A DNA stretch of 64,000 bases from Trypanosoma brucei (lineage: Eukaryota). Under the pieces are notes generated by a model, which made no database searches, was not told where the DNA came from, and was given only the letters and a program-made list of their open reading frames with translations. The DNA lies in the NCBI GenBank assembly GCA_000002445.1, contig AL929603.2, positions 864,001 to 928,000 on the forward strand, given 5' to 3'. Shown one piece after another: positions 7,818 through 63,993 of this stretch (the first letter of the stretch is position 1; each line of letters opens with the position of its first letter). Position numbers and translations under genes: made by a program.

Positions 7818-7860
7818 ATTTCCTTTTATTGTTTTTTTCTTCTCCTCACTGTCTTCTTAG
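7818..7860 (+). promoter_or_regulatory. polypyrimidine tract plus AG: candidate spliced-leader acceptor for the RNase H2B-like gene
   Basis: tttccttttattgtttttttcttctcctcactgtcttcttAG ends 4 nt before the ATG at 7865. This is the typical kinetoplastid trans-splice signal arrangement (established knowledge; site usage not verifiable here). Confidence 0.5.
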
Positions 7861-7864
7861 CGCA

Positions 7865-14804: not shown

Positions 14805-15411
14805 AGTTCTCCTTCAAATAGTTGCGGTGAATGAGCAACCACGACGCTGGAGGCAGAGAGGCGGTGGGGTTTCAGTATTCAGTGGATGTGTTGATGCCGC
14901 GTGGAGAGGTCTAATCCTTTTTCTTTTCGGTGTCTCGGTCTGTCTCTGTTTTTTCTTTCTTCCTCCCTCCCTCCCTCCCTCTCTTTCTTTCTTTCTTTCG
15001 TCTAGTGCGACTTGGGGCCTAAGGAAAGGGGAAGAAGGGGAAAATAAGCAGAAAACCACTATTGTTTTTTCTTTATTTTTTTCTTTTTCTTATCCTTTTC
15101 GTGGTGGTGGTGGTTGTGGTGGTGGTGATGTTTCCATCCAGTCTCGCCCCCGATTTTACTGAAGCCAGGGCGCAGTTGAAAGATAAAGAGAGGGAAGGAG
15201 ACCGTGTGCGTGTGTGGGGAAAACATTATTGCTGAGTACCTATACCATGCTCCAACATTCCCACATCTATACGCACAGACTTAAAAACTTGTTCACTTTT
15301 GCTTCCTTTTTTTTTTTCTCTTACCTTCACCCTTTCTGGCATTATTTATGATGGCTTCCTCTTCCTCTTCTTCCTTTTTCTTTCTTCATTCTCTGTTTTT
15401 CTGTGTTTTGT

Positions 15412-15414
<3 letters not shown>

Positions 15415-15448
<34 letters not shown>

Positions 15449-15460
15449 TTATTTATTTAT
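15415..15460. repeat. (TA)n followed by (ATTT)n microsatellite
   Basis: tatatatatatatatatatatatatatatatttatttatttatttat. The (TA)n run spans 15415-15444 and (ATTT)4 follows to 15460. Confidence 0.95.
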
Positions 15461-16595
15461 GTTGGTGTAGGGGTAAAGATATGACTGCAAGGCGCTCTAG
15501 AATGGGAGGAATTAGATGGGAATTTATATATATATATAGGAGTTACCGCAACAGAAAGGTTTCCAAATTTTTTTTCTTCTTTTTTTCTTCTAAAAAAAAA
15601 GAAGGAATATTCGGCATTTTCACATCCAACTTTCCACCAATGATGTATAATACTGTAATGTGATGTAATGTGATGTGTGTATTTGGGTGAGGGAAAGAGT
15701 ATTGTGAATACGGCTGCGCCTTGTCATTCGGTATTGCATTTTATTTGTATGTTAAGTTTTAAAAGGATACGGTCTAATAGTGTGTGTGGAATCACTCACT
15801 TATGATAGTGGTAATGCGAGAAAAATGTACGAAAAGGGACAGATGAATAACTGAACTTCTTATGTTATGAACATTGTACGATGCATGTTTTTGTATCATT
15901 ACCTCACATATGTTTATGCGTTAGTATACTTTTGTAAGAGTGTCTGCTTGTTTGGTTATTTGTGTGGAATATTGACGACATAAATCCACGGGACGGTTTG
16001 AAATTGCCATCATTACTGCAGTTGCTGTTACCTTTCGTTATTATTATGCTTCACCTTGTTTACTTTTTTTGTTAAGAAAGTACTTTCTTTTCTTTTCTTT
16101 TCTTCCGTTCTTTCTTTCTTCTTTTGTTTTGTCATTTTTTTTTCTTATCTTCATTGTTACCATGACGTTGTCAAGTTATTCCTCCTTACATATCCCCATA
16201 CATCATTATTATTACCATTATTTACTACTTTTACTATTACTAATATTGTTGTTATTATTTGAGTTGATTGATTTGATTTGTTTGTCCCTTCCCCCCCTTC
16301 CCGTTGCTGCAACTTTAGCTGAAGAATAAAGCAATAGCGGATTTGAAATTTGTGTATCGTGAAGGTATTAAACGTGTAATCTTCAGCAAATATACATTTG
16401 TGTGCATTTATTTGTTTAATTGAAGGGAACTGAAGGAAGGAGAGGCGGAAGGTTGAAATCGGGCCTCTTTTGTTTTTTTCCTTTCTTCTTCTTTCCTTTA
16501 TTCGAATCATTTCATTTGTATAATTTGCAATTGCCAATTAATCATACGATACCCATAATTAAGAAAAAAAGAAAAAGGAAGGAGAAACGAAAGGA

Positions 16596-16607
<12 letters not shown>

Positions 16608-16626
<19 letters not shown>
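16608..16626. repeat. (TA)n microsatellite
   Basis: atatatatatatatatatatatat, flanked by purine-rich (GGAAA-like) sequence. Confidence 0.9.
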
Positions 16627-16628
<2 letters not shown>

Positions 16629-17085
16629 AAAGACAAGAAACAGTTGAAGAAGAGAGGAAAGGTAAATATAAATAAAGGAAAGGGGACAAATCCGAAGGGT
16701 ACTTGGGAGTTTTGGTTGCCATTATTAGAAGTTTGAGGTGAAGTGTACGTGAATTTTAGTCATTTGGGCAATTGGAGAGTTTTGTGTGATTAAGTTGGCT
16801 CGTTGGTAACAAGAAGAAAAAAAGTGCATAAAAAAAGGGGCGACAACCGATATAAGAAAAAAAAAATTCATAATAATACGCGCAGTAAAAAAAACAAGGT
16901 GAGGCACTAGTAAAAAAAAAATAAAACGGGGAAGAAATCCTTAGAGAAGGGCGAAAGGAAGGAAGAGAGAAAGAGAGAGGACGGAAGGAAATAAATAATA
17001 ATAATAAAAAAGAAAGATCAAGAGCAAGAGCAAGAAGAAAAAAAGAAAAAGAGAAATCACCATATATAATAGGAAATAGAGGGAT

Positions 17086-19182
17086 ATGGAGAAGGTAGCA
17101 ACAACAGCGTCTACGGCAGCTTTAAGAAGAGGCATAAACAAAAAGGAGAAGGAAAAAGGGGAGGTAGTGGATGGAGGTTCTGCAAGGCGGAAAAAAGGCA
17201 TCAATGCAGTGGAGGGGGGACAATCTTTAGGTGATTCAGAAGCGCGTCAGCGTCAATTACTCTTGTCCCGGAAGGATGCGGTAACGCCAATACCTGAAGT
17301 GGCTCTCCGTATGTTCAACATCGCCATGGAGGATCTGTGCAACAAATACCTTCAGGATTATTACACTGCTGCTGGAAACCTGTTTCTTGTACACTCCCGA
17401 CGGCTGTCACCACAGACGAACGGGCCACGAAGCTCGCAACAGGTGCAATCACAACGACACCCTGAAAAAGTAATACAAAAAATCAGCAGCGTGCCAGTCA
17501 AAACCGCGAGCTCTGAAAGGCCTTCACAGGCGCCGTCAAGGGGGTGTTCGACGTCATTTAGAAGTTCGCGACTCTCAGCCGGTACTGCCGGGGCGGCAAC
17601 AATAACGAGAAGTAGCCAAAGCATTCCTCTAAGCATTAGGCGTCCAACAAGTCTGTTGTCAAGTTCCAAGGTGGCGCAATCCCGGAAAGACCGCAGCACT
17701 TGCCAGGGCGGTACCGGCACCACTGAAGATATTAATCACACTTCAGCCTCGAGAAATAAGGCCAGCCGGAGCGAATTCATGGACGCACGGACCACGGCTG
17801 TGAGTGACGAGAGGCAGCGAAGCCGATTGTTCACGATGTGTAGCGGGACGACCTCACCGAGCGCAGGGAACTCTTCGCGGCGGTGGACTGCTGCGGGTGC
17901 GGAGGCAAATCAGACTCATCCCTCCGGTGCCTCAAAAACCAGCGCCAATAGCCCCGCAAGTCCGGTGCCACGGATTCCAATCTCAAAGGTTTGGAAGGCA
18001 TCTGTCTCTAGCCGCACAGCGGATAGGCAATTAGAATCACCAGGTCGTCTCACAGAACCATTGCGCACACGCCTGTATGCAACGGACGCGGAAGTCTCTC
18101 CAGAACATCGCCGCCAGACTTCACCGAGCCTGCTGTCACGTAAACATCGTGAATCACGTGCTTCTGCGACGCCAGCGAAGCCGGAGCCACCTCTGAACGA
18201 ATCGTCGCGGCATCCGAGGGCATCTTCCGCCACCACGCCACGGATGTCGAGAGTTTCAGCGAGTAGCACTCCACAGTTTTCAAGGCGGTCGCTCGTGACA
18301 ACACCGCGCGTGCCTCACAGGCCTTCTGTGCGTCGTGCAGGTGAAAGTCCCCATACCTCCGTCTCCCGCCTAACCACTCCGAGGCAGTTACGGCCCTGTA
18401 CGCATTGCAGCGGGCGTGGAATTGAAGGTGGTATCATAGGTTTGGTTTCCTCCACCCGCTCCGCTGACTTGGCGAAGGAAAGTGTGGATTGCTCTACGGA
18501 GTACCGACTGGAGTGGTCCTGCACAAACAGTTGTGCTCAGAGTTACACTCAACAGACTTCTTCACAACGCCGAAGCACCGCCCTCGTTGGCCCCAACAGA
18601 AGTACGCTTACGGGTGTGTTTGAATGGCCTGTTGGGAGACACACCCCGCTTTCGCGACCGTACTCTCAAACTGCGGTACCTCGTGGCTCAATTACGCGTG
18701 ATGGAGGGTGTCCAACAACTGATGTGACGCCACCTTCCCCACTTGTGAGAAGTTTAACACTCATTTCAGAAAGTGTAAATGAAACTCCAGCGGAATATAT
18801 ATCACGGCATTTTTCTTCGTGCGTGATAAACTCAGTTCTTGAATGTGTTCGTGTGAAGATGGGCGGCAGGAAGTCCGACGAAGCGGATCCGAGAGCAGAT
18901 GAGCTCAATGGTAGTGATAGCAGTGACGATACGGATAAGATCGGTAATGGTGATGCAACAAATGATATTTCGTTGGGGCTTCAGAAAGGCGATCTTTTGC
19001 TTGAATGCAATGGACAGCCGCTATCGGGCGCAGCGTCTCTGCAGGAGATTATCAGGAAGGCGCTGCTTTGTGATAATAACACGGTGCTTTTGAGAGTCCT
19101 CCGTGGCGCTGACAGTATCGCGGTGCGTGAGACGTTGCTAAAGGACAGTTCTGCTGTTAGGATTGTTGAACCAGTGATGTGA
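17086..19182 (+). CDS. hypothetical Ser/Arg/Thr/Pro-rich protein with C-terminal PDZ-like domain
   Basis: 698-aa ORF. The central ~450 aa is low complexity (S, R, T, P). The C-terminal block ISLGLQKGDLLLECNGQPLSGAASLQEIIRKALLCDNNTVLLRVLRG follows the GD-hhh-VNG...L...h...h pattern of PDZ domains. Confidence 0.75.
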   Translation: MEKVATTASTAALRRGINKKEKEKGEVVDGGSARRKKGINAVEGGQSLGDSEARQRQLLLSRKDAVTPIPEVALRMFNIAMEDLCNKYLQDYYTAAGNLFLVHSRRLSPQTNGPRSSQQVQSQRHPEKVIQKISSVPVKTASSERPSQAPSRGCSTSFRSSRLSAGTAGAATITRSSQSIPLSIRRPTSLLSSSKVAQSRKDRSTCQGGTGTTEDINHTSASRNKASRSEFMDARTTAVSDERQRSRLFTMCSGTTSPSAGNSSRRWTAAGAEANQTHPSGASKTSANSPASPVPRIPISKVWKASVSSRTADRQLESPGRLTEPLRTRLYATDAEVSPEHRRQTSPSLLSRKHRESRASATPAKPEPPLNESSRHPRASSATTPRMSRVSASSTPQFSRRSLVTTPRVPHRPSVRRAGESPHTSVSRLTTPRQLRPCTHCSGRGIEGGIIGLVSSTRSADLAKESVDCSTEYRLEWSCTNSCAQSYTQQTSSQRRSTALVGPNRSTLTGVFEWPVGRHTPLSRPYSQTAVPRGSITRDGGCPTTDVTPPSPLVRSLTLISESVNETPAEYISRHFSSCVINSVLECVRVKMGGRKSDEADPRADELNGSDSSDDTDKIGNGDATNDISLGLQKGDLLLECNGQPLSGAASLQEIIRKALLCDNNTVLLRVLRGADSIAVRETLLKDSSAVRIVEPVM

Positions 19183-22100
19183 CAACCTCATCATTAAGTA
19201 AGTGATAAAAGGAGAAGGGGGGGGGAGGGAGGAAGGAGGGGAAGAAAAAAAAAAAGGGAGCTGGGGGAAAGGAGAGAAAACGCCAGATCGTATGTATATA
19301 TATATACTTATATATTTGTATGACACAGGTGTGAGCATTCGGGGGTAGCAGCATATGAGGGAATTTTAGTTACGTGTTTCGATGATAAAATGGATAAATT
19401 TCCCTCTCGCCCTCTCAACGTTATATTCCCTTGAGAGTAAACATATAGAGGTGTATGCACTCCTGTTACACATCTGGTTGGCTTGAATTGAGGTAACACA
19501 ACCATTCCCTACTGGTCGCTTCTTCTTTTTTTCTTTTTTTTGTTCATTTGTTGGATCATCATCATCTTAATTGCGACTACCAGGTAGCACGCAGGCGGTT
19601 ATTGACGGCTGTATTTTGTTTTTTTGTCGCTTTTTTTGTGTCTTTATTTACTCAACCAGTTGTTTTTTTTTTCACTCAACTGTTGTTATACGTATTGGAG
19701 ATGACCATTTGTGTTTAGGCGTGCTTATATTTGCGTGCATGCCTAACACATAACCTCAAGTAACTCATTATTGCAATGCTGAGAAATATGGAAACAAAAT
19801 TTATCAAGAAAACACTTCATATCTTTTTTTTATTTAAAATCTTCCGTAGCGGGTTCGGCTGCGTTGAAACCCCTCTTTTTTCTACTTCCTTTTTGTTGAA
19901 AATACGGGATACAATAGATTCTCCCCCTTATCCACGTGGATGATGTTTTGTGATTAAAAAAAAAATGAACATACTCATCAGCATTTTCTGAGGTTCTTCT
20001 TTTGTTGCTGTACTTCACTTCTGCCTCTTTTCCACATATCTTTTCATTTCCGTACAGGAATGAGGGTGAGCACATTAATATTATATAAACGCATGCACAT
20101 GCAGAAGCTTTTCCTTCTTTCCTCTTTCTTTTTTTTTTGTACACTATCTGTGGCTTCTACGTGGCGCTTTTGCTGCTGTACAATTCTTCATACTGCTCTT
20201 TTTATTCTATTTTGTTTCTTTCTACTATATATAATATCTATATATCTATATATCTAAATTTATATTTATTTATATATATATATATGTATGTGTATGTGTG
20301 TGTATGTGTTTGCTTGTGGTGGTGAGTCGTCTGAGGTGTAATGTGTGGTGTGAAGCCGAAGGTGTGTGAGCGGACTCTTCTCTCTCTTTTTGTTCTTTTT
20401 AAAGTTCAAGGTTCATTTTTGTATGCTGTCCGTTACATTTACCTTTGGTGAAAAAATTATTTATATTTATTTATATTTACTTCGATCTATCAATTTCAAT
20501 TGTCTACTTATCTCTACGTGTGGTTAGGCGGCGTAAAGGGAAATTAAAACCTGTCATATTTTCCATTCACTTCGCTGTTTACTTAACCCATGTATTTTTA
20601 TCACTCAAGTGCGCCGCCCGTGTGTTTGTGTTCCACGCGGTATTCGCTGTTCTTTCCTTTTTTTTTTTTTTCAGAAGTGTTTGGCAATTTGTTGAATCCC
20701 TCCGTTTAAATGTTGTTGAATGAAATGTTGCTCATGTCATGTCACGTCATGTTTCACACCTCTCCTTTTTTTTTTTTACACTTCCTTTTTATATCCGTAA
20801 TAAAGAGGAGAGGAGGGAGAAAAGTTAGCATGAGGATGCGGATAAAATGACACGACTGCATCAGGAAAAAAAGAACATAAAGGGAAATAAAAAGTGATGA
20901 AGGGGCAAAAGAAGAAAAAAAAAAGGAAGAGGAAAGAGAGCAAAAGAAAGCAGGGTATTTATTTATTTATATATATATTTATATGAAAACGAAAAAAAAA
21001 ATAATAAGAATGAGAATTATCACTTTGGAGAGGGGATGGAGGAGGGGAGGAGGGGTTTTGATTAGGCGTTTTTTTTATAAATAAATTAAATAACTTCCCT
21101 GTTTCTTTGCTTTACCCACCTCTTTTTCTTCTTTTTCTTTTCTCTCTTGTGTACCTTCCAAACAAACATAGTTTGGGTGCCGTTTTCCTTTTTTTTTTCC
21201 TTTTTTGTCCACATCAGCATATTTTTGCATTGTTGTGTGGATTTGTGGAGCGGGAAGAGTGTATTCTTTTTCTGTATCTCCTTTCTTTCTCACTGCGGTT
21301 AATAATTAATTCACTTCACTTCACTCCACTTCAATTTTTGTTTTTTTTTCTCTTTCTATTTCTCTTTTTGTCTCTCTCTCTCTCTCTTTTTTTTTTTTAA
21401 AACCTCTGTTTCTTTCCATATCTTCTCCTGTGATCCGTTGGACCAATTTGTTCCGTCCATTACGTTTTTTTCCTTTTTTTTCCCCTGCATGTTTGATTGT
21501 ATTTCCGTCTTTACTGTCGTTGCAGCATACCGTGAAGTTGTGATAACACGGGGCAAATGGAAGCCTCAACCCACGCATAAACATTAATAAAAAAAAAAAA
21601 AAGAGTACAAACCACACGAATAAAATGAACAAAAAAGTTTCAATAAATAAATATATTTAAATATATATAAATATTTCCAAAAAAAAAATAACGAAAAATG
21701 ATACATTAAGGGTGGATTGTGTCACTCACGCCGGAAGTGTGTTTGTGCGTTCATAAAAAGCTATGGACTCACGCGTGTTTGTGTGTGTGGAATGCATTAC
21801 TGTAATATGTGCTCTAAGGTGTATTGATACAGCACCTATCCTATCCTATTCTATTCTATTGTATCATTATTATTATTTTTGCATGTGTGTTTTCTTTCCT
21901 TTATTTATTTATATATTATTCATATTCATTTTGCCTCTACTTTCTATTAATATTCACACACAAGGTACCAACATCACCAAACGTGAAAACTGTCTACACA
22001 TCAACCAAAAACAGATCCCGAAATACAGGATTAGAAAGAAAACAAGGGATCGCAAGGGAGATCACTGACGAAAAGTGAAAACACTGAAGGGGTGGTGGGT

Positions 22101-22298: not shown

Positions 22299-23774
22299 AT
22301 GGCTCATATATCCGTTACTGACACCCATTTCCGTGTCCTGGGAATTCCACGTGGTTGTGATGAGACGGCGCTGCGCAAAGCCTTCCGACAGAAGGCCCTC
22401 GATCTTCACCCCGATAGGAACCCAAATGGCGCGGATGAGTTTAAGAAAGTAAATGAAGCGTACGAGGCCTTGCAGCAGCATTTCCGTCGTAATGGAGGCC
22501 GTGATGTGTTACCTCATGCACCACCCTCCAATGCAGGCACCGGCTTTCAATACGCCCGACAGGCGCGGGAACCGCCGTGCCACTTCACAGAGGAGGAACT
22601 GTTTGGATGTTCCCCCGGTGGTTTCTCCCATGAGCGTCGGGGTTACGGGGCGAAATGTTATGCGCGGTTTGGTGGAAGACGGTGGCAAGCCAGCGGCAAC
22701 AGCGGTGATAACAACGTCGGTGGTGGTATCGATTTAGACGGCGGCTCCATGCCTTTTGGGGGTTTTCCTGTTGGATCAAAGGAGGAGCATCAACGCGTGG
22801 ATGAGCGTTGGCGTCAAGCCCATGGCAGGCGAGTACCTGTCAGCGGTTATTCTTACGCCCGTGGTGGTGCTGCCTCATGCCACGCGAGGTCTCACCCATT
22901 TTCTCATAATCATAATCAACAACAGCAACAACAACAACAGCGGCCACCACAATCCTCTTCACCTCCATTTAATGGTGCAAGTGGAAGTCCAATGACAGAA
23001 CCCAAACCAAATGGAGGTGAGAAAGCGAGAGGAACAGGGGAGGGAAGCAGCAGCGCTGGTGGTGGTGCCGCAGGCAGCAATGACAAAAGTTACACTCATG
23101 CAAGCAGCAGCCCTCCTTCTTATGACGGGTCTTATACTCAACAACCTAATGAGAAGAGGATGAGCAGCGATGAGTTGTATCGGGAATGGGAGCGACTCAT
23201 GCGAGAATTTGATAGCAAAACATCCGCAACAGGTGGAGCATTCCGCGACCCATGTGAATGGGAATGGGACAACAGCGATACTAGCGTCGTCAGTGATGGT
23301 GAAGATAGTCAAGACACGGATGATGATGATAATGATGATGATGATGGTGAGGAGAATTATGTTGTTAACAAGAAGAAACACCCCGCTTCTTCAAGTAGCC
23401 GCCGGGCGAGGACGTGCTCTAGTCGCTTTAGTGAGCGTAACAGGTTGAATGAAACCCACATGCGTAGTATCATTGAGGAGAAGATTCAGTTAAAAAAGAT
23501 ACTTTTCACCCAACGTTACACTCCGGACCCTGCGGATGTGGCGCTAATGAGCGATAATGAAGTTTATGTATTATGCGAGGTGCTTCGTGATGTGGAGCAG
23601 CGTATGCAAAAGGTGCTTGTAGGTCGCCTGACTAAAGGTCTTTGTAGCCGCTGCATGAAGGCTCCGAAGATGCAGGGCTCAAAATTATTCACTTGTGGTC
23701 ACGCATCCGTTTGTTCTGAGTGCGCATGCACGTGCGCGGTATGCCCCATTTGTGCGGCTACGAGTCGTCGTTAA
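22299..23774 (+). CDS. DnaJ (J-domain) protein with C-terminal C3HC4 RING finger
   Basis: 491-aa ORF. The N-terminus FRVLGIPRGCDETALRKAFRQKALDLHPDRNPNGADEFKKVNEAYEAL is a canonical J domain with the HPD motif. The C-terminal 45 aa, CSRCMKAPKMQGSKLFTCGHASVCSECACTCAVCPICAATSRR, has the C-x2-C...C-x-H...C-x2-C...C-P-x-C spacing of C-terminal RING-HC fingers. A poly-Q run (Q10) and an Asp-rich tract lie in between. Confidence 0.85.
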   Translation: MAHISVTDTHFRVLGIPRGCDETALRKAFRQKALDLHPDRNPNGADEFKKVNEAYEALQQHFRRNGGRDVLPHAPPSNAGTGFQYARQAREPPCHFTEEELFGCSPGGFSHERRGYGAKCYARFGGRRWQASGNSGDNNVGGGIDLDGGSMPFGGFPVGSKEEHQRVDERWRQAHGRRVPVSGYSYARGGAASCHARSHPFSHNHNQQQQQQQQRPPQSSSPPFNGASGSPMTEPKPNGGEKARGTGEGSSSAGGGAAGSNDKSYTHASSSPPSYDGSYTQQPNEKRMSSDELYREWERLMREFDSKTSATGGAFRDPCEWEWDNSDTSVVSDGEDSQDTDDDDNDDDDGEENYVVNKKKHPASSSSRRARTCSSRFSERNRLNETHMRSIIEEKIQLKKILFTQRYTPDPADVALMSDNEVYVLCEVLRDVEQRMQKVLVGRLTKGLCSRCMKAPKMQGSKLFTCGHASVCSECACTCAVCPICAATSRR

Positions 23775-23924
23775 TTGATATGCGTTTTTGGTTTTGAAAA
23801 TTGCGTTTTTTTTTTTCGGGTGTTGGAAATTTAGAGGGCATTTCTCGCAGTGGGGGAGGCGCTGCGTACATTTATGACTTCTCTTTTTCTTTTTTTTTTT
23901 TGAAAAAAAAGAGAACACAAACAA

Positions 23925-23975
23925 AAAGGAAAAGGAAAAGGAAAAGGAAAAGGAAAAGGAAAAGGAAAAGGGAAA
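23925..23975. repeat. (GGAAAA)n hexanucleotide repeat, ~9 copies
   Basis: aaaaggaaaaggaaaaggaaaaggaaaaggaaaaggaaaaggaaaaggaaaaggg, 150 nt downstream of the DnaJ-RING stop. Confidence 0.9.
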
Positions 23976-25295
23976 GAGAGGTAGGGCAGAGGAGAAAAAG
24001 GTTGTGGTGGTGGAGGATGAGTTTAGATGCGAAAACAATAAATATTAGGATTGAGAAGTGAGATGCGAGTAGAGTTTGGATTATTGCGTCAATTAGGTGA
24101 TAAAACATGTGGGGTGAGGGACGCTGAGGTGTAACATGAAACTAAGGGAAGGGGAACTACACAAATACAAGCAATGACATGTAGGCATCTGCATTTGCGC
24201 ATGAATGTAAAAATAAATATGTTCAAACGTGAATGCATGAGGGGGGGGGAGGATGTGTTGTGGGGAGTTGAAAGGATGGGATTACTGATAATTTTATTAC
24301 TCGATGAGCATTACAAAAAAAAAAAAGAGAAAAAAGGGGATTTCTTGTATCTTTTTTTTTTCTCCTCATTTCCACACCAAAAGGTAGTCAAAAACGTTGG
24401 GACGGGATTATGTGCCGGTGGGCTCCAATGCGGTGCATCATTTTTTTTTCTTTTTTTTCTTTTTAGTTACTTTTATTATTATTATTATAATTATATGGCC
24501 ACAGCCACGGCTATGGTCATCATCATCATCATCACTACCATTGTGATCCTTGTCGTTTCCCGGATTCCTTTTAAGTGTTTGAACCTTTTCACTCCCCTGT
24601 GATGCACTTCTGTTGTTTGAGTGTGCAGAGGGGGCATGATTAAATAGTTAAAGAATTTTTTTTTATTCTAAAAAAAAAAGTAGATCAAAGAAACAAACAA
24701 ACAAACAAACAGAGAAGCGCAAAAGGGATTCACCTGTAAGCACCACTGCGGTTCTCCGGGATTTCACATTCAGGAATCGAAACTTCACGTCTTTTTCCCT
24801 TTTCCCCTCTTCTCTTCTCTGTACCACCCAATTAAGGCAAACACATATGGTGTGTATATTTGCCCATGGTTACATTGGGGGTTGAATGGATGTGGTGTGA
24901 GGGAAATGTTATGAATGAGTAAAGATAAAAGTGTCAGTGCGTGCGTGTGTGTGTGTGTGGCGAGACCATATTTTCGGAATCACGGTTGGTGGTTTTTGAT
25001 TTTCTTTTTTTGATTTTTCTTTTTCTTTTTTTGTTTTTGTTTCTTTCCCTCCTTTTCTCACTCTTTCTTTTTCCCCTGTTTTCGTTATTTGTCGTTCATT
25101 GCTATTTATCATCACCGTTATTATTGCTATTATTTTTCTTATTTATTTATTTTCAAATGATAGCCTTAAATTGTTTTGGTGCCCCTTTTGTTTGTTCCCG
25201 CTAATCCCTCAGCCCTTTTCCCAAACCATTTATCCCCCTGTGAAATTTCTCACGAAATGACATTAGACACTTAAAATGTACGTGTGGAAGTTGTC

Positions 25296-26280: not shown

Positions 26281-26926
26281 CGATCGGAATAACAACAACA
26301 ACACCAACAAAAAAGAAAACAAAAGGAGGGGAGGATTTCTTGAGCAGAGTTGTGTGACTGCTCAGTGAGATTTTTGAGGTGAACAGCCATCAAAGTTTCA
26401 GATACGGGTGTGATAAACTCATACGGAAGGAAAGCCTGAAAGAGAAAGAAAAGGAAGGGAATTGACGTTGGTATTTGTGTTTGAACAAAGGATAAGGGTG
26501 ATTTAGAAGAGGGAAAGAAGGGAAAAAAAAAAAAAAGAAACTAAAAGAAAAAAAACAAAGAAAAGGAAAAAAGAGAATTGGATTATAGGGAAGTAGGCGG
26601 AAAGAAAGAAGAGGATAGTGAGATTAGAAGGAAAGAGGGAAGACAAAAGCAGGAGGCCGTAAAAGAATAGAACTGGTGCCTTCCTGTGCAGGTGGGTGCG
26701 TGTTTCCACACTCTTGGGAGCAAGGGGACATACATACATATTGATAAGGAGGGAGAGAGAAGGTAAAAGGAAGGAAGAAGAAGGAAAACCACAACAAAAA
26801 AAAGGAAGGAACCGAACACAGCGGCCGTGGGGTTTGTCAACGACTGTCACTTTCACTTGAGTGAAGGGACGTTATAACAACAACAACAATAACAAAGGGA
26901 ACACAGGGCAAAAATCCAAGTTGAAA

Positions 26927-29900
26927 ATGGAGAACGACTATCCCGTTAACCTGCGAGTGGATATCGCTCCTGAAGATGGCACGGTTATGCTTCCCGGAAG
27001 CATAACCATCACCCGCACCACCGTTTCCGTGTTCAAGTTGCGTGAATCCACGGATGAGGAGCCGCTGTTTATTGGCGTGTGCTCCGTCCCATTAATTAAG
27101 TTCTCCCGCTGCCCCAGTACAGTCTTTCCGAGAACCGATGCCCTTTTGCTGACGAGCGTCTCGGGGCATCTTTTTATTAACGCCGCCCTCACAGCTGGAG
27201 TGGTGCCACCAGAGGAAAGTGGGCTCGGGACCCCGAGCTCTAGTGCCAGTGACATCGCACGCAGTCATGCATCAGGAACCCGGCGAGACTCTGTTGATGA
27301 GCGCCGTAAGAAAATTGACAACCCCGGCCTTTGGACACGACTACGGCTGGAGTTTCGCGACAACGACGACTGCGACCGCTGCGTTGAGGCCCTCCTCGCG
27401 CGCCACGCAGAGGAGCTTAATTCACGCGGTACATCATCCACAAGTTCCCTCTCTAAGTCTCACTCCCAAAACGATGTTACGGGTGCGTCACGTAGTCGCA
27501 GGGATTCTTCCATGCGCACACACAGTGGCCCACGGCGCAGTACACACAGCGAGTCGACCAGGTCAACGGAGAGTTCGATGAGGAGCACACAGGAGGACTT
27601 AGTCCGAAGTTCGCGCGGTGGAGAGAGCCGCAACAGTCGCGGTGACGCAAGCAGATCTGGTGGAACTCCATTAAGAAGTGCGCCAGATGACTCCCGACGT
27701 TCCCGTGGCCCAGAGAGCCATTCCGTCCGCAGCGACACAACAAGAACGGGTGGGACTCCGTCGAGGGGTGGGCCAGATGATGTCCGACACTCTCGAGGCC
27801 CTGATAGCCATTCCAGTCGCAGTGACACAACAAGAACAGGTGCAACTCCATTAAGAAGTGCGCCAGATGACTCCCGACGTTCCCGTGGCCCAGAGAGTCA
27901 CGTCACCCGCAGCGAGACTAGCAGATCAGCAGGGACTCCCTTAAGGAGCGCGCATAACGAAACGGCCCGCAATAGCCGCAGTGAGGCAAGCAGATCTGGT
28001 GGAACTCCATTAAGAAGTGCGCCAGATGACTCTCGACGCTCCCGCGGCCCGGAGAGCCATTCCGTCCGCAGCGACACGACAAGAACGGGTGGGACTCCGT
28101 CGAGGGGTGGGCCAGATGATGTTCGGCACTCTCGAGGCCCTGATAGCCATTCCAGTCACAGTGAGCTGAGCAGGTCTGGTGGAACGCCCCCACGAAGTGC
28201 GCCAGATGCTATGTTCCGACATTCCCGTGGCCCCGATAGTCAAACTACCCGCAGTGAAGCGAGCAGGTCGGTCAGGAGCTCCTCAAAGCACTCACCCGCT
28301 GGTGCAGGCAGATCAACGGGAACGACTAGGTCAAGTGGAACAGCCCTTCCCGCCGGAGCTGGTGTCAGCGAAATGATGCACACGTGCCGCAGCGGACCGA
28401 CGTACATGGAGGGCTCATGCACGAGTTCTAATGCCCGCCGAAACGGTGGGATCCATCACGGGTCGGACCGGACACCCATCCGTGCTGGTCGAGGTCCCGC
28501 GGACGGCGATTCCGAATCAGATGCAGCCTCATCTGCTGTGGACATCCGACGGCATGGCCGGAGCAGCGTAACCAGTAGCGCCAGCAGGGGCAGTGGTTTG
28601 GACAGCCAACCCTTAACTCCTAGCGGGAGCGAAGTGGGGGGGCAGAAGCGCCGTTCAGGTTCCCCAGCAGACTTCCACACTCCCAACAGCAAGCGGCGGG
28701 ATTCTCAGTCGGAGTACTCACAGGACAGTCAGTTAACCCCCCGTGGCCTCCCGAATCGCAGCCGGGGAGACGGCAGTTATAGAGAGGCGGATTCCGTAAG
28801 CGAGCTACGGACACCACGGAGCTCGTTAAGGGAAGGGAGCCGCGACGGCTATGGAACAAGGGCTCCAGGCACCGCAAGGGATGCACCAAACGCAGCCCAG
28901 TCCCCATACAACATCCGCCGACATTCACTCAACAGCACTGGAACAAGCACGATGCAAACATCAGTGATCGACTCCATCGTGGGGGGCGGCCATGATAGGG
29001 GGCGTGCCCACAGCCAAGCAACGTCCGCAAGAACGACACCGTACAACTCTCGCAGCCCACCCGGCCACCCATCCACGGGCAAAAAGCGCACGGAGCTGCA
29101 GTATTTCCTGCGATGCATTCTCAAATTTATGCACCACCGTCTCCATTTCATGCAATACTTACACAAGGAGGTCGTCTTCGAGGCTTACCTCCACGAGGAG
29201 GCGCGGCTGCTCGGCGGACGCCCCCGATCGCGTTCGATGCGACGTTCCTCCCGTGCCACCTCCGCCAGTCACAACGCCAGCCGCATGAGTGCCTCACCGC
29301 GCCGCTCATTGATCCCTCCTGGTCTGGAGGAGGCTCATCGGCTCCGTGAGATCGAGGACCGCCTTCGCGAGGTGGAGAATTTGCACCGCACGACCGAACT
29401 GGAGCGAGCTGAGTTGGAGAGGCGGCAGCGTGAATTTGAGGAGGAGCGGCGAGATTTCGAGAGGCGCCGTCAGGAACTGGCCCACCAGCGCCTAGAGGTA
29501 CAGGATTTGTTGCGAGAAGTTGGGGATAGGTGGAGGGATGGTGACCGCATGGGTGGTATGGGCAGTGGCATCAACAGGTTTGACTACCTGAGTGATCAGA
29601 GACCTCGTGACAGCTACGGTTATGGTGAGGGCATCGGATCTCGCCATTCTTCACATCACAGTAGGCAGCGTGATAGTGACACCCTTTCAGTACCTACAGG
29701 AGAGGCTAAGTTGCTTTTGTCCTCGCAGAAGCCTCCGGCATTAGAGGAGGCGTTGGATGAGGCCGATTACCCCACTGCTTTTGTGGATCGTTACGTTTAC
29801 GGTGATGAGTGGAGAATGCTGCTCCCCAAGCGCGAGATGGAGGTTCGTTTCAATGCCCTCGTCGACACATGCATCGCTCTTAAGCTGCCACGCCGCCTTG

Positions 29901-31843: not shown

Positions 31844-32408
31844 ACGATGGAAAGTGCAATTAATCGGTTGAGTGACTGGAACTGTGTGTAAAGTAGAAGA
31901 AAAGTAATTGAGGAGGAGACGACAAATAAAAGGAGAATTAGATATGGCTTTTTCTTATGTTTTAGATGGAGCCAAAGAGCTTGGCACAAGGAAAAAGGTA
32001 TGAGCCAATGTATATATATATATATTAAACGTATTGATAACTCCGTTCTATGAGATGAAAGGGGTAAAAAAAAAAGAAAAAGAAAAGAAGAGAGGGAAAA
32101 AAGAGTGACAGCGTGGCAGTGAATTATACATGCCATTCCGCACACATTTTCATTTTTTGTCACCCCAATGGGGTCTCTCTGTTGTTGCCTCCTTGTTGGA
32201 AATGGCCGGCAGGCATTTTAAAGGCGACGGGGTTCATATATGAGTGTTGTTGTTGTTGTTTTTCTTGCTTTTCGCTTTAAAATGAAAATGAATAAAAAGT
32301 GAGAGTGAAAGAGAAGGGAACGAAAAGAAGAAAAAAAAAGTAGATCAAACAGACAAACGGACTAAAACGAAAAAGGAAAAGAAAATAAATGAGAGGAAGC
32401 GCGGCACT

Positions 32409-32425
32409 TCCATTTCCATTTCCAT

Positions 32426-32461
<36 letters not shown>
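32409..32461. repeat. (CCATTT)3 plus (AT)16 microsatellite
   Basis: ccatttccatttccatttgaatatatatatatatatatatatatatatatatatat. Confidence 0.95.
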
Positions 32462-32464
<3 letters not shown>

Positions 32465-35400: not shown

Positions 35401-35637
35401 TGATACAAAAATATACACATACACACAAGGGAATAAATATATACTCATAAATATAGAAGGTAAGAGAGGGAAAGAAAAATAAAAAAAGAAAAAAAGAAAA
35501 GGAAAAGGAATAAGGGAATAAGGGAATAAGAGAACAGAAACCAGAGACACATACACACACGAAGAAGGACAAGTAGTCCATTGTCGAGCTGTTTTCTTTT
35601 TTTTGTCTGTTTACCGTAACGAAGTGAGCATTTTTCA

Positions 35638-38950: not shown

Positions 38951-38988
38951 ACACCACCACCACCACCACCACCACCAACAACAACAAC
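38951..38988. repeat. (CCA)n-(CAA)n trinucleotide repeat
   Basis: caccaccaccaccaccaccaccaccaacaacaacaacta in the spacer upstream of the SMP pair. Confidence 0.85.
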
Positions 38989-39220
38989 TAAACAGAAAAC
39001 TAAACTAAAAAAAAGAATAGGGGGAAGGGTGTGGTACACTGACAACGCAAACGAAGGACAGATTAGCCTACTGTGAGGGTTGGAACTTTTAAAAAAAAAA
39101 TAATTAAAAAATCCGGAAAGGAAAAGTTTCAATAATAAAAGGAAAAAGAGAGAGAGAACGGGACAAAAGAGGAGGAAGTCTCTCTCTGTGTGTGTGTGTG
39201 TTTGTGTGTTTGTGTGAGAC

Positions 39221-41026: not shown

Positions 41027-41053
41027 GTTTTGGGTTTGCCCATTTTTGTCCAT

Positions 41054-41064
41054 GTGTGTGTGTG

Positions 41065-41096
<32 letters not shown>
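41054..41096. repeat. compound microsatellite (GT)8(CA)(TA)12
   Basis: catgtgtgtgtgtgtgtgtgcatatatatatatatatatatatata, immediately 3' of the stop of the first SMP gene. Confidence 0.95.
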
Positions 41097-41098
<2 letters not shown>

Positions 41099-62500: not shown

Positions 62501-63993
62501 GTGCAAAGGAGGCAAACGCAAAGGGACATGCGCAGCTTGTGCAGAAACTTCTCGCCTTGTTGGAGGTGCGCGTAAAGTCCAGGAAAAAGAGACGCTGCTC
62601 GTTACCTTTGGAGGGCTCCGTTGTGAGCGAGCGAGAGCGGGATATGCTGTTGAGGAAGATGCTCATGAAAGAAAAGTCTGAGATGAACAATAACAACGGC
62701 AGTGGGGATTCCACCAAAGTCCACAGCAGCCTCGGTGCCACCAGCAATGAATGTGGCCACGACAACACCAAAGGCGATGGTACCAACAGCAGCAACCCAA
62801 CTGCTGGAAGTCCGGACCGTTCTCTGAATCAGGTGGAAGATAAGCCCGAAACCGCTAACAGTTCTTGTGCAACTGCGAGTTTCCCCACACGGCGGCGTGT
62901 CACGTTTGCTGACGCTCCAAGCTCTTCTCCATCGCCAGGGAGATCTCTCCGAGCCTCGCCAGGAGGTGCTGGCGCCGTAAGCACCAAAACTCCCGCGGTT
63001 CTGGGACCATCATCAGCCTCAAAGGCAACGAACCCTTTTAGCAAGCGGCCCACGGGTGGAAAGGCTCCCACAACCGCTTCGACTGCAGCGACGGCAGTGC
63101 AGGCACCGCCGCAGCCCAAGAAACCGATAAACCCCTTCAACAAGTCGGTGAAGGCGGCAACAAGTTCGGTTGATTTGTCAGCTTTACAGAGTCGCTCGTT
63201 AACCCAGTCGCCTGAAAAAGGCGCACCACCCTCCACCACCATGCTTGTTCTCGGAGATTCGCAGTCGCAGGATACCTTTGAGACGGAGGGAAGTGAAGGA
63301 AGGACAAAGGACTTAGAAATGGGGAGGGATGTTGTGGGATCACCCCAGCAGCGCTTGTCATCAAACGCAAGTGCTGTGACTCCACTGTTGTCACCATCGT
63401 TAACAACTTCAGCTGCCGCTTCGGGGACACCGAAAAGAGGCGATGGTGCTGGCATGCAGTCACCAGAGGCTGCAGCACACGGCCCCGGGTGTAACAAAGG
63501 AAATGTTATGCATCCCCAAAAAGGGATTAGTACAGAAACCGTACACCCCGCCACGCAGAAGGATTCTACCAACGGCCTCTACACTGCAGGGGGTTTGGCA
63601 ACGACAACCACAGTTACCAGAACTCAGAATAATAGTGTAACGACGACTCACTTCGTCCCAAAGGTGGAGCCTTTTCTTTCACCACAGAATGCCGTGTCTT
63701 CATCGCTACCAGTGACTAATGAGGTTGCTGATCCGTTCCTCGATGTGAATGATGGTGGTCCCGTTTCGCTTGATTCACTTTTGCTCGATGTGGGCCACGA
63801 TTCATCGGCAACCTTCACTCCACGCAGCGCCTCTTTCGGGGCGGCTTTGCTGAAGCGCTACCGCGAAGAGGAAGAGGACAACAGTAATGGTAGCGTAGGA
63901 TTTGTGGTTGAGACCAAGTTGTCTGCGGCTGCGGCTGGTAATGATATCGACGGCAGTGGTAGTGGCGGAAGTCATGACAACGTTGGCTTGTAG
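59527..63993 (+). CDS. Ctf4/AND-1 (WDHD1)-like protein: N-terminal WD40 repeats plus SepB beta-propeller/helical domain with long Ser/Thr/Pro-rich tail
   Basis: 1488-aa ORF. The N-terminal WD-like blades are DGHYALSGGADGVVALHPL and ISCGRDGTVVLHEN. The central region (YLAYNSVGYIHCTAEATTIHFHDMS...GAAFVIAQ...WRLRLHTGEVVRCIATGVRYTAVATSRYLRIFSLSGLQLAVISL...IVAMVGT...LQWMGWSEDGPLHIADTAGVLQMF...WVPVYD) follows the pattern I remember for the Ctf4/Mcl1/AND-1 SepB domain. A helical bundle comes next (WDHLIRREV...FFNKALGDQQTSRAVDLATFLEL), then an ~400-aa STP-rich disordered tail. Confidence 0.75.
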   Translation: MWQTMEHPHLQVHSPGPIRVSIDGHYALSGGADGVVALHPLRRFPTAQPLWARQCHTGAVTCVRLHTALRLAISCGRDGTVVLHENVISDVNATSNNNSNTNASTAGTDANSGEHTVRVMCRVTGELRTVLFDSERRRVFIAGDSLRCLHMSPSGCVVQTIPMCVPSPVVSLALSPCGGVLAVASASCALGVVSVCSSSSNDSASSHFSRENSQESQERANRLKDLKIVLPNVLTPVAKREDEVAYRLTWCTTGNGALFLLVPRVTEARVLRFEEATTPPYTHRLRHVGNIDSLGLTDLLGVACHPLSVHVISVLLVSGAGTVVGKVDTRKWNIVRIRSQNYTGCADAEVDSTSGDVVVGTLDGRVTYMKREAPKAVGASTKGATEGEGKTNRVSESDCGGAKKKLKTEPSVRDRSRDVTNGDKAGQRNNREVRDGGGRDGSDDGFIVDDDDSGSSGGVKSVSSGSSVMAVEEDFKQVVADLKRTNPTYDDEIDQKERPSRWRREDPRRVIRDVEDGDATGTPRRSVFLDDEAEESSDGNSDDDGREEEDEEGEDDYDGNHVASTVRGHGRKKFNDGGDNDCDSEAVDVGSTSSSTHLPNDAAATHSGAAMGGSPVMDYFFQIGATPPGEEGSCYLAYNSVGYIHCTAEATTIHFHDMSLQAVRVLERGTMLMASLSPVGAAFVIAQEATDMESVDDLVPRLTIYYRTFVSIGLQPDWRLRLHTGEVVRCIATGVRYTAVATSRYLRIFSLSGLQLAVISLFPRIVAMVGTNSKKVMQGYGADFDPLAVCYLEGGGELRLQVLDVGSRSVVVPATTVPVTTTHQLQWMGWSEDGPLHIADTAGVLQMFTQNWGGSWVPVYDPRCMNDQTYNLWIWGVCDESMLVYRSCKDDPPYPAAVASGLPTERVSLFLPLLHSGTERDTVMWDHLIRREVRTDEIKRRSDFYTSNIAKHDMLHDKKIMEFFNKALGDQQTSRAVDLATFLELRDNIEVCAKEANAKGHAQLVQKLLALLEVRVKSRKKRRCSLPLEGSVVSERERDMLLRKMLMKEKSEMNNNNGSGDSTKVHSSLGATSNECGHDNTKGDGTNSSNPTAGSPDRSLNQVEDKPETANSSCATASFPTRRRVTFADAPSSSPSPGRSLRASPGGAGAVSTKTPAVLGPSSASKATNPFSKRPTGGKAPTTASTAATAVQAPPQPKKPINPFNKSVKAATSSVDLSALQSRSLTQSPEKGAPPSTTMLVLGDSQSQDTFETEGSEGRTKDLEMGRDVVGSPQQRLSSNASAVTPLLSPSLTTSAAASGTPKRGDGAGMQSPEAAAHGPGCNKGNVMHPQKGISTETVHPATQKDSTNGLYTAGGLATTTTVTRTQNNSVTTTHFVPKVEPFLSPQNAVSSSLPVTNEVADPFLDVNDGGPVSLDSLLLDVGHDSSATFTPRSASFGAALLKRYREEEEDNSNGSVGFVVETKLSAAAAGNDIDGSGSGGSHDNVGL

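What the first reader, a model, noticed from the sequence alone, without database searches (positions are those of the whole stretch)
22299..23774. J-domain co-chaperone fused to a C-terminal RING-HC E3-type finger
One ORF combines a canonical N-terminal DnaJ J domain with a C-terminal C3HC4 RING in the last 45 residues. The J domain shows the HPD motif and the KKVNEAYEAL helix III. The RING sequence is CSRCMKAPKMQGSKLFTCGHASVCSECACTCAVCPICAATSRR. C-terminal RINGs of this spacing are typical of ubiquitin E3 ligases. A J domain would recruit and activate Hsp70. The architecture therefore suggests a single polypeptide coupling Hsp70 substrate capture to ubiquitylation, a triage function usually carried by separate proteins (for example an Hsp70/J-protein plus CHIP). 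The middle of the protein is disordered, with Q10, D-rich and G-rich tracts.
Basis: partly seen in the sequence, partly recalled or inferred. Interest (0 to 1): 0.55.

Follow-up and report, generated by a model that had tools for sequence, protein, structure and literature searches.

The report
Trypanosome J-domain protein with RING finger
This Trypanosoma brucei gene, annotated only as a "putative DnaJ chaperone", really does join an Hsp70-activating J domain to an IAP-like RING zinc finger in one conserved protein, so it may link chaperone capture directly to ubiquitin tagging, although the RING lacks several residues that make classical RINGs active.

Summary
ORF 22299..23774 (+), 491 aa, is identical to T. 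brucei TREU927 Q4GYE8 / XP_001219123.1, "chaperone protein DNAJ, putative". It has a canonical J domain (Pfam DnaJ 54 bits, HPD at 37-39). It ends in a C3HC4 RING (C449...C485) whose eight ligands are invariant from Trypanosoma to Leishmania and in about 20 more divergent relatives.

The RING scores below Pfam's cut-off, and the precomputed Pfam lists for the orthologues give only DnaJ. A family profile nevertheless hits cIAP2, cIAP1, XIAP and IDOL RINGs. An AlphaFold model (pLDDT about 93 in the RING) superposes on the same structures. The fusion is not an assembly artefact: about 33 representative clusters share the architecture J domain, disordered linker with short conserved motifs, two long helices, RING.

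E3 activity is plausible but not shown. The trypanosome RING has Arg where E2-binding RINGs have Ile/Val/Leu, Ala at the linchpin position, and no IAP-type aromatic tail.

Best reading: a kinetoplastid-lineage class C J-protein that acts as an Hsp70-coupled RING E3 or E3 adaptor, a functional analogue of CHIP and not a relative. I found no published description. Interest is moderate.

The parts
22299..23774 (+). Complete gene for the J-RING protein (491 aa plus stop). It equals T. brucei TREU927 Q4GYE8 / XP_001219123.1, 'chaperone protein DNAJ, putative'.
   Evidence: ORF list; exact-sequence look-up; upstream in-frame stop at 22293 and no internal stops.
22320..22508 (+). J domain (about residues 8-70). 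HPD is at 37-39 (22407-22415), and helix III FKKVNEAYEAL at 48-58.
   Evidence: Pfam DnaJ E=1.4e-14, residues 10-64. PDB hits are dnj-12, DNAJA2 and DNAJA1 J domains at E 2e-11 to 4e-10. AF2 pLDDT is 79-89 and Foldseek TM is 0.6-0.72 to J-domain structures. Identity among Trypanosoma species is 79%.
22509..23399 (+). Low-complexity, predicted disordered linker (about residues 71-367). It carries Q8 (about residues 206-213), a D/N run encoded partly by a (GAT)n repeat at 23319-23350, and G/S-rich tracts. Its length differs between strains.
   Evidence: pLDDT below 50; composition; TRF. Identity between species is 14-31%. Cluster members are 490, 491, 494 and 500 aa long.
22584..22622 (+). Conserved short motif FTEEELFG..PGG (residues 96-108) inside the linker. 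Its partner is unknown.
   Evidence: F96, T97, E100, L101, F102, P106 and G107 are invariant in A1. It recurs as PLF(T/S)(E/D)EELF in divergent relatives.
22779..22853 (+). Conserved motif ERWRQAHGRRVPVSGYS (residues 161-185, with a short predicted helix at 161-175). It is a family signature.
   Evidence: R170, W171, R172, A174, H175, G176, R178, V179, P180, V181, S182 and Y184 are invariant. An RxPxSxY match is found in most family members. Identity among Trypanosoma is 68%, and 58% to Leishmania.
23400..23636 (+). Two long helices (residues 368-405 and 419-446) joined by the invariant turn Y-TPDPADVALMSD. This is a pre-RING helical module and a possible dimerisation element.
   Evidence: In the AF2 C-terminal model the blocks over the helices reach pLDDT 91-98, with overall pTM 0.71. 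Invariant columns are Y407, P409, P411, A412, V414, A415, S418 and D419. Identity among Trypanosoma is 72%.
23643..23771 (+). C3HC4 RING finger plus tail (residues 449-491). Ligands are C449, C452, C466, H468, C472, C475, C482 and C485. The tail is AATSRR.
   Evidence: Pattern and spacing. All eight ligands are invariant. zf-C3HC4_3 scores below threshold. The profile hits IAP and MYLIP RINGs. AF2 pLDDT is 92-94 and Foldseek probability is 0.97-0.99 to IDOL, cIAP2 and cIAP1 RINGs.
21830..21945 (+). Pyrimidine-rich tract upstream of the ORF. It is the likely trans-splicing signal for this gene's mRNA (inferred).
   Evidence: Sequence read directly. The role is inferred from established knowledge of trypanosomatid mRNA processing and was not tested.

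Best explanation
The locus is an intact, expressed-looking T. brucei gene for a class C (type III) J-domain protein. Its C-terminus is an IAP-like RING-HC finger preceded by a two-helix module. The most likely mechanism has four steps. (1) The N-terminal J domain is closest to cytosolic DNAJA-type J domains. It docks on ATP-bound cytosolic Hsp70 through HPD and helix II, and it triggers ATP hydrolysis so that Hsp70 clamps a client. (2) The long disordered linker carries three conserved short motifs. It acts as a flexible tether and probably holds client-, partner- or regulator-binding sites. (3) The helical module positions the RING and perhaps dimerises it. (4) The RING recruits an E2~ubiquitin, alone or through a partner RING, so that the Hsp70-held client, or Hsp70 itself, is ubiquitylated. 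This would be a one-polypeptide chaperone-to-degradation coupler, working like CHIP but built from unrelated parts. Shown here: the ORF, both domains, their conservation as a unit across the kinetoplastid lineage, and the predicted folds. Inferred: Hsp70 stimulation, zinc binding, E2 recruitment, ubiquitin transfer, the substrates and the location in the cell.
For: The ORF and its identity are established. The J domain scores above Pfam's cut-off, has an invariant HPD, and is 37-50% identical to DNAJA1, DNAJA2 and dnj-12 J domains. The RING ligands are invariant and correctly spaced. The family profile hits cIAP2, cIAP1, XIAP, MYLIP, BIRC7, MIB1 and MDM4 RINGs. The confident C-terminal model (mean pLDDT 89, pTM 0.71) superposes on IDOL, cIAP and XIAP RING structures together with their preceding helix. 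Pro483 after C7 is invariant. The architecture J + FTEEELF + RVPVSGY + helices + RING is kept in about 33 of 41 representative hits down to about 25-30% identity. All 9 divergent members tested hit Pfam DnaJ and 6 of 9 hit zf-C3HC4_3. The J domain, helices and RING are 65-79% identical among Trypanosoma, against 14-31% for the linker, so both ends are under purifying selection. No TM segment or signal peptide is evident, which points to a soluble protein. [quoted passage not shown]
Against: No experiment bears on E3 activity or Hsp70 stimulation. The RING is below Pfam's gathering score in every member tested. In T. brucei and all trypanosomatids the residue at C1+2 is Arg, Ala, Cys or Ser. 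In canonical E2-binding RINGs it is Ile/Val/Leu (cIAP2 has Val in the alignment). Divergent relatives keep I/L/V there, which suggests a derived change. The linchpin position is Ala or Gly in the whole family, whereas unrelated RING hits in the same search carry Arg. Ala linchpin variants of Hrd1 and Doa10 stimulate Ubc7 much less than Arg variants (PMC7667886). The IAP-type trans-acting Phe/Tyr tail required for cIAP1 activity is absent (PMC6349121). One inventory reports a CHIP homologue in T. cruzi, Q4DHT9 (PMC5976635), so the 'missing CHIP' argument is disputed.
Confidence: 0.45

Rival explanations
1. The RING is a structural or non-catalytic zinc module, a pseudo-E3. It serves as a dimerisation or docking domain, for example as the inactive half of a heterodimer with another RING protein, as BARD1 and BMI1 do. 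The protein would then be a specialised J-protein that brings Hsp70 to a particular complex without itself activating an E2.
For: Arg451 sits at the E2-contact position, Ala486 at the linchpin, and there is no aromatic C-terminal tail (PMC7667886, PMC6349121). From my own memory, not tested here, BARD1's RING also begins CSRC and lacks an Arg linchpin. The long pre-RING helices are confidently predicted and could mediate pairing.
Against: Over half of human and yeast RINGs lack an Arg linchpin and many are active (PMC7667886). Pro483 and the IAP-like helix-RING geometry are retained. Divergent relatives keep I/L/V at C1+2, so the ancestor probably bound an E2. No partner RING has been identified.
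Confidence: 0.3
2. It is an active E3 with a dedicated, non-quality-control substrate, for example a cytoskeletal, trafficking or cell-cycle factor recognised through the conserved linker motifs. The J domain would use Hsp70 to remodel or extract that substrate, or to regulate the ligase itself, with no general triage of misfolded proteins.
For: Three short linker motifs (FTEEELFG, ERWRxAHGxRVPVSGY, REWERL) are conserved from Trypanosoma to divergent relatives. This is typical of specific partner-binding sites. Class C J-proteins are generally specialised (established knowledge of JDP classes).
Against: No partner is known. No localisation signal was found. Nothing distinguishes this reading from general triage at the sequence level.
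Confidence: 0.2
3. It is an artefact: two neighbouring genes (a J-protein and a small RING protein) merged by a frameshift or assembly error, or a chance Cys/His pattern at the end of a J-protein.
For: The RING is below Pfam's gathering score. A long low-complexity linker with repeat-encoded tracts separates the two domains.
Against: The same single ORF is found in T. b. brucei, T. b. gambiense, T. equiperdum, T. congolense, T. vivax, T. cruzi marinkellei, T. rangeli, T. grayi, T. conorhini and Leishmania. It is also found in unnamed divergent assemblies, always with the J domain at the N-terminus and the RING at or near the C-terminus. The eight ligands are invariant. Profile and structure matches to RINGs are significant.
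Confidence: 0.02

Closest known systems
CHIP / STUB1 (TPR + helical hairpin + U-box)
   Same: Both are single polypeptides that combine an Hsp70-engaging module, a helical region and a RING-fold E2-recruiting domain at the C-terminus. The proposed triage logic is the same.
   Different: There is no TPR domain and no U-box. Hsp70 would be engaged through its ATPase domain by a J domain, which drives client trapping, whereas CHIP binds the EEVD tail through TPR. The finger binds zinc. There is no sequence relationship, so this is an analogue and not a family member.
IAP-type C-terminal RING E3s (cIAP1, cIAP2, XIAP, BIRC7, IDOL/MYLIP; Pfam zf-C3HC4_3)
   Same: They are the best sequence and structure matches. 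Ligand spacing is the same (C-x2-C-x11-13-C-x-H-x3-C-x2-C-x6-C-P-x-C), a helix precedes the RING, and the position is C-terminal.
   Different: There is no Arg or Tyr at the linchpin (Ala486). Arg replaces Val/Ile at C1+2. The tail is 6 residues with no trans-acting Phe/Tyr (PMC6349121). The score is below the Pfam cut-off. There are no BIR, FERM or other IAP/IDOL domains.
Class C (type III) J-domain proteins that link Hsp70 to the ubiquitin system, e.g. DNAJB2/HSJ1 (J + UIMs) and sacsin (UbL + J) (recalled from memory, not tested)
   Same: In each a J domain is combined with a ubiquitin-system module, to route Hsp70 clients towards degradation.
   Different: Those proteins bind ubiquitin or the proteasome. 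None carries a RING that could itself catalyse ubiquitin transfer.
Class A DnaJ (DNAJA1, DNAJA2, Ydj1, dnj-12)
   Same: The J domain is most similar to these (37-50% identity over about 55-60 residues).
   Different: There is no G/F region, no CXXCXGXG zinc-finger domain (PF00684) and no C-terminal client-binding domains (PF01556). The zinc module here is a RING at the extreme C-terminus.

Membership tests
J-domain proteins (Pfam PF00226) | J-domain sequence profile above the curated threshold | tested here: met
   54.4 bits against a cut-off of 27.8, E=1.4e-14, residues 10-64. PDB J domains match at E down to 2e-11.
J-domain proteins (Pfam PF00226) | HPD tripeptide in the loop between helices II and III | tested here: met
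   H37, P38 and D39 are invariant in all 12 aligned orthologues and in 9 divergent relatives.
J-domain proteins (Pfam PF00226) | Four-helix J fold | tested here: met
   In the AF2 model, pLDDT is 79-89 over residues 11-60. Foldseek TM is 0.6-0.72 to solved J domains. This rests on a prediction, not a solved structure.
J-domain proteins (Pfam PF00226) | Stimulation of Hsp70 ATPase | not testable with these tools
   Needs a biochemical assay with TbHsp70 or TbHsp70.4.
Class C (type III) J-proteins | Absence of the G/F region, CXXCXGXG zinc finger and DnaJ C-terminal domains of classes A and B | tested here: met
   No PF00684 or PF01556 hit even at E up to 10.
RING-HC finger (C3HC4; Pfam zf-C3HC4_3 PF13920) | Eight zinc ligands with spacing C-x2-C-x(9-39)-C-x(1-3)-H-x(2-3)-C-x2-C-x(4-48)-C-x2-C | tested here: met
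   C449-x2-C452-x13-C466-x-H468-x3-C472-x2-C475-x6-C482-x2-C485. All eight are invariant across the family.
RING-HC finger (C3HC4; Pfam zf-C3HC4_3 PF13920) | Score at or above Pfam's gathering threshold | tested here: not met
   17.6 bits in the whole protein and 22.8 bits as a fragment, against 27. Six of 9 divergent relatives also hit below threshold. The family profile against PDB reaches E=7e-5 to cIAP2.
RING-HC finger (C3HC4; Pfam zf-C3HC4_3 PF13920) | Cross-brace RING fold | tested here: met
   AF2 pLDDT is 92-94 over the RING. Foldseek probability is 0.97-0.99 to IDOL, cIAP2 and cIAP1 RINGs. This is a prediction; zinc is not modelled.
RING-HC finger (C3HC4; Pfam zf-C3HC4_3 PF13920) | Binding of two zinc ions | not testable with these tools
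   Needs metal analysis of recombinant protein.
Catalytically active RING E3 (IAP-like dimeric type) | Hydrophobic E2-contact residue (Ile/Val/Leu) two residues after the first Cys | tested here: not met
   CSRC: Arg451 aligns with Val of cIAP2 and Ile of XIAP. Trypanosomatids have R, A, C or S there, while divergent relatives mostly have I, L or V.
Catalytically active RING E3 (IAP-like dimeric type) | Pro after the seventh ligand (C-P-x-C) | tested here: met
   P483 is invariant.
Catalytically active RING E3 (IAP-like dimeric type) | Hydrogen-bonding linchpin (usually Arg) at n+1 after the last ligand | tested here: not met
   Ala486, and Ala or Gly in almost the whole family, against Arg in unrelated RING hits P0074, P0079 and P0080. 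The position is defined in PMC7667886, which also shows that it is not obligatory.
Catalytically active RING E3 (IAP-like dimeric type) | C-terminal tail with Phe/Tyr that contacts donor ubiquitin in trans | tested here: not met
   The tail is AATSRR, 5-6 residues in all Trypanosoma, with no aromatic residue. The requirement in cIAP1, BIRC7, RNF4 and MDM2 is described in PMC6349121.
Catalytically active RING E3 (IAP-like dimeric type) | Helix preceding the RING that contributes to dimerisation | tested here: inconclusive
   A helix at 419-446 abuts the RING and aligns with the IAP and IDOL pre-RING helix. Dimerisation itself could not be modelled.
Catalytically active RING E3 (IAP-like dimeric type) | E2-dependent ubiquitin transfer | not testable with these tools
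   Needs in vitro ubiquitylation or discharge assays.
CHIP / STUB1 | N-terminal TPR domain that binds the Hsp70/Hsp90 EEVD tail | tested here: not met
   No TPR family was hit at E up to 10.
CHIP / STUB1 | C-terminal U-box (RING fold without zinc ligands) | tested here: not met
   The domain has all eight zinc ligands, and there is no U-box hit.

The most novel reading that the evidence does not exclude
The J-RING family may be the kinetoplastid lineage's own chaperone-coupled ubiquitin ligase. It would be the first example in which the E3 itself carries the J domain. The same molecule that triggers Hsp70 to clamp a client would then also deliver E2~ubiquitin to it, filling the role CHIP plays elsewhere. 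CHIP is reported as unidentified in Leishmania and Trypanosoma (PMC12570473). The non-canonical E2 surface (Arg at C1+2, Ala linchpin, no aromatic tail) would imply pairing with an unusual E2 or a new activation mode.
Probability: 0.3. Interest if true: 0.7.

Novelty: new variant of a known kind. Interest (0 to 1): 0.5.

Why it matters
Cells must decide whether an Hsp70-bound protein is refolded or destroyed. In animals that link is made by CHIP (TPR + U-box) and by separate J-proteins and E3s. A protein that fuses the Hsp70-activating J domain directly to a RING would be a different and simpler wiring of the same decision.

It occurs in a parasite lineage where a CHIP orthologue is disputed (PMC12570473 against PMC5976635). 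These parasites depend heavily on heat-shock responses when they move between insect and mammal.

The precomputed Pfam lists for the orthologues give only DnaJ. A published T. cruzi RING inventory does not list DnaJ among the domains appended to its RING E3s. The protein may therefore have been overlooked as a candidate E3.

It is directly testable with standard assays and genetic tools in T. brucei. If the RING proves inactive, the family would instead be an example of a conserved pseudo-E3 tethered to Hsp70.

Tried and rejected
1. I tried to name the divergent relatives.
- A profile of their C-termini (A3) against the 5.8-billion-protein index returned nothing.
- The full-length profile (A4) returned only family members already seen, one further unnamed DnaJ-only protein, and then bacterial DnaJ.
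- Cluster look-ups gave no organism names, only automatic 'CbpA' labels.
- The family's range beyond trypanosomatids therefore rests on unnamed Logan, ENA and JGI assemblies. Two of their contigs show dense same-strand gene arrays but no synteny with the window.

3. The afdb50 fold library was unavailable.

4. The T. brucei J-protein catalogue (Bentley et al. 2019, PMC6363631) and the RING review PMC4109693 are not held. I could not check whether the RING has been noted there, and I could not recover the TriTrypDB gene ID.

5. Ten literature searches found no paper describing a J + RING protein. These included exact phrases such as 'DnaJ and RING'.

6. Rejected readings.
- A DnaJ class A CXXCXGXG zinc finger: there is no PF00684 hit and the spacing is wrong.
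- A PHD, FYVE or B-box finger: only RING families are hit, and the ligand order is C3HC4.
- A membrane or secreted protein: the highest 19-residue hydropathy window is the Cys-rich RING itself.
- A gene-fusion artefact: see the rival explanations.
Full report
**Observation**

The window carries an uninterrupted ORF at 22299..23774 on the + strand, 491 aa, with an ATG start and a TAA stop. An in-frame stop at 22293 sits immediately before the ATG, so the start is unambiguous. The protein is identical to T. brucei brucei TREU927 Q4GYE8 / XP_001219123.1 on the 1.06-Mb chromosome record. The same sequence is also recorded for T. equiperdum. It is annotated 'chaperone protein DNAJ, putative'.

All 18 other ORFs of at least 200 aa in the window lie on the + strand, apart from one that is nested antisense. 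This is what a trypanosome polycistronic unit looks like. A pyrimidine-rich tract lies about 350-450 nt upstream of the ATG.

- HPD is at residues 37-39, FKKVNEAYEAL at 48-58, and the quoted RING string is residues 449-491.
- The glutamine run is Q8, not Q10.

**J domain**

- Pfam DnaJ scores 54.4 bits (cut-off 27.8, E=1.4e-14) over residues 10-64.
- The best solved relatives are the J domains of C. elegans dnj-12 and human DNAJA2 and DNAJA1, at E 2e-11 to 4e-10.
- The AlphaFold model is confident here (pLDDT 79-89). It superposes on J-domain structures with TM 0.6-0.72.
- There is no hit to the class A/B modules PF00684 or PF01556, so this is a class C J-protein.

**RING**

The pattern is C449-x2-C452-x13-C466-x-H468-x3-C472-x2-C475-x6-C482-P-x-C485.

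Pfam zf-C3HC4_3 is the top zinc-finger hit but falls below the gathering score: 17.6 bits in context and 22.8 bits as a fragment, against 27. This matches the precomputed Pfam lists, which give only PF00226 for every orthologue.

Three independent lines show that the domain is a RING.
1. All eight ligands are invariant in 12 trypanosomatid sequences. They are also invariant in divergent relatives of 22-30% identity.
2. A profile of the family's last 120 residues matches solved RINGs with the ligands in register.
   - cIAP2 at E=7e-5, cIAP1 at 1.2e-4, XIAP at 1e-3, MYLIP/IDOL at 3e-3 and BIRC7 at 5e-3.
   - MIB1 RING3 and MDM4 also match, more weakly.
3. A model of residues 366-491 built on 15 sequences has mean pLDDT 89 and pTM 0.71, with 92-94 over the RING. 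Its best Foldseek matches are IDOL, cIAP2, cIAP1, XIAP and BIRC7 RING domains, at probability 0.84-0.99.

Six of nine divergent relatives also hit zf-C3HC4_3 on their own.

The extra cysteines C477 and C479 are not conserved and are not ligands.

**Is it one gene?**

Yes. The same N-terminal J domain and C-terminal RING are present in T. b. gambiense, T. equiperdum, T. congolense, T. vivax, T. cruzi marinkellei, T. rangeli, T. grayi, T. conorhini and two Leishmania species.

An exhaustive HMMER scan of 1.84 billion representatives with the C-terminal profile found 41 proteins. About 33 of them carry an HPD near residue 31-38 and a RING at or near the C-terminus.

Nine divergent members (363-506 aa) share the whole layout: J domain, PLFTEEELF, AHGxRxPVSGY, a charged coiled region with ETREEWER, two helices, then the RING. 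All nine hit Pfam DnaJ.

Two of their contigs show dense, same-strand gene arrays. I could not attach organism names to them, and there is no synteny with the window. The named range is therefore Trypanosomatidae. A wider kinetoplastid or euglenozoan range is likely but unproven.

**Anatomy between the domains**

Residues about 72-360 are predicted disordered (pLDDT below 50). The exceptions are short helices at 161-175 and 290-310.

Identity to other Trypanosoma species varies strongly by region.

| Region | Identity among Trypanosoma |
|---|---|
| J domain | 79% |
| Motif 161-185 | 68% |
| Pre-RING helices | 72% |
| RING | 65% |
| Rest of the linker | 14-31% |

Both ends and three short linear motifs are therefore under constraint, while the linker is free to vary. 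Linker length even differs between T. brucei-group strains: 490, 491, 494 and 500 aa. Part of the acidic run is encoded by a (GAT)n repeat.

No transmembrane segment or signal peptide is evident.

**Does the RING look catalytic?**

Against the closest structural relatives, four features can be compared.
- **C1+2 position.** Trypanosoma has Arg (CSRC) and Leishmaniinae have Ala, Cys or Ser, where cIAP2 has Val and XIAP has Ile in the alignments. Divergent relatives mostly keep I, L or V. That this position contacts the E2 is established knowledge from c-Cbl, BRCA1 and cIAP2 work and was not tested here.
- **Linchpin.** This is defined as n+1 after the last ligand (PMC7667886). It is Ala486, and Ala or Gly in almost the whole family, whereas unrelated RINGs caught by the same search have Arg.
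  - Arg is the commonest linchpin, but 53-60% of human and yeast RINGs have something else.
  - Ala variants of Hrd1 and Doa10 are weaker but not dead (PMC7667886).
- **C-terminal tail.** IAP-type dimers need a C-terminal Phe/Tyr acting in trans; cIAP1 F616H is defective (PMC6349121). Here the tail is only AATSRR.
- **Retained features.** The invariant Pro after C7 and a helix abutting the RING are both kept.

Taken together, the fold is a RING. E2 activation is plausible but would have to work differently from IAPs, or need a partner.

**Mechanism**

I rate an Hsp70-coupled E3 or E3 adaptor as the most likely single reading, at about 0.45. In this reading the J domain triggers Hsp70 to trap a client, the flexible linker and helices place the RING nearby, and the RING brings E2~ubiquitin.

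The rivals are as follows.
- A non-catalytic RING that docks or heterodimerises: about 0.3.
- A dedicated-substrate ligase that uses Hsp70 for remodelling: about 0.2.
- An artefact: about 0.02.

**Comparison with known systems**

Functionally the nearest analogue is CHIP. It is not a relative, because there is no TPR and no U-box. Structurally the finger belongs with the IAP/IDOL zf-C3HC4_3 group, but it fails three of that group's activity-linked features. By class it is a type III J-protein.

I found no paper describing a J + RING protein.
- A T. cruzi ubiquitin-system inventory lists the domains appended to its RING E3s without DnaJ. It used only the PF00097 and PF08746 RING models, which would miss this RING (PMC5976635).
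- The T. brucei J-protein catalogue (Bentley 2019) could not be read. UniProt or InterPro may already flag the RING automatically, and I could not check this.

**Verdict**

This is a real, conserved and so far uncharacterised architecture: a new variant of the known theme of chaperone-linked ubiquitin ligases. Its catalytic competence is open. Interest is moderate (0.5).

Noticed in passing
window 1-64000: Every ORF of at least 200 aa lies on the + strand, apart from one nested antisense ORF at 62829..63572. Cumulative GC skew rises steadily across the window. The whole window looks like one polycistronic transcription unit of T. brucei chromosome 1.
   Followed up: partly
window 26861-31843 (+): The next gene downstream encodes a 1660-aa protein with a FAZ1_cons domain (PF23398, 31.9 bits against a cut-off of 27.5, residues 980-1062). 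It is probably a protein related to the flagellum attachment zone.
   Followed up: partly
window 7775-9064 (+): A 429-aa ORF matches the RNase H2 subunit B family (Ydr279 wHTH domain, E=9e-10, with a weaker hit to the N-terminal triple-barrel domain).
   Followed up: partly
window 9932-19182 and 35638-43602 (+): Six further large ORFs have no Pfam hit at E up to 0.001. Their lengths are 426, 789, 698, 716, 601 and 675 aa. They may be lineage-specific proteins.
   Followed up: no
window 32001-36000: A 3.8-kb stretch between ORFs is unusually AT-rich (GC 0.31-0.35). GC skew is strong in the first half (+0.34 for 32001-34000). It contains (AT)16, (TAT)15 and A/G-rich repeats and has no ORF of 200 aa or more. 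It may be a long UTR or intergenic region, but this was not examined.
   Followed up: partly
window 23924-23976: A near-perfect (AAAAGG) x 8.8 tandem repeat lies about 150 nt downstream of the stop codon of the J-RING gene, in its presumed 3' UTR.
   Followed up: no
window 23319-23350 and residues about 255-262, 336-347: The low-complexity tracts of the protein differ between T. brucei-group isolates, which have 490, 491, 494 and 500 aa. Examples are an extra GGG in the Gly run and a DDDDNDDDD / DDDDDNDDND variation. Part of this is encoded by a (GAT)n microsatellite.
   Followed up: partly
L001 4309-5400; L002 5001-6500: Divergent J-RING homologues (P0061, P0068) come from unnamed Logan assemblies SRR22387936 and SRR7467761. 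They sit on roughly 10-kb contigs with tightly packed same-strand genes, which looks like kinetoplastid genome organisation. The organisms are unidentified.
   Followed up: partly
P0055, P0058, P0059, P0060 (relatives, not in the window): Some family members are much longer (949-3045 aa), with hundreds of low-complexity residues after the RING. In P0060 the J-RING unit lies near the C-terminus of a 3045-aa protein. These may be gene-model fusions or real extensions.
   Followed up: no
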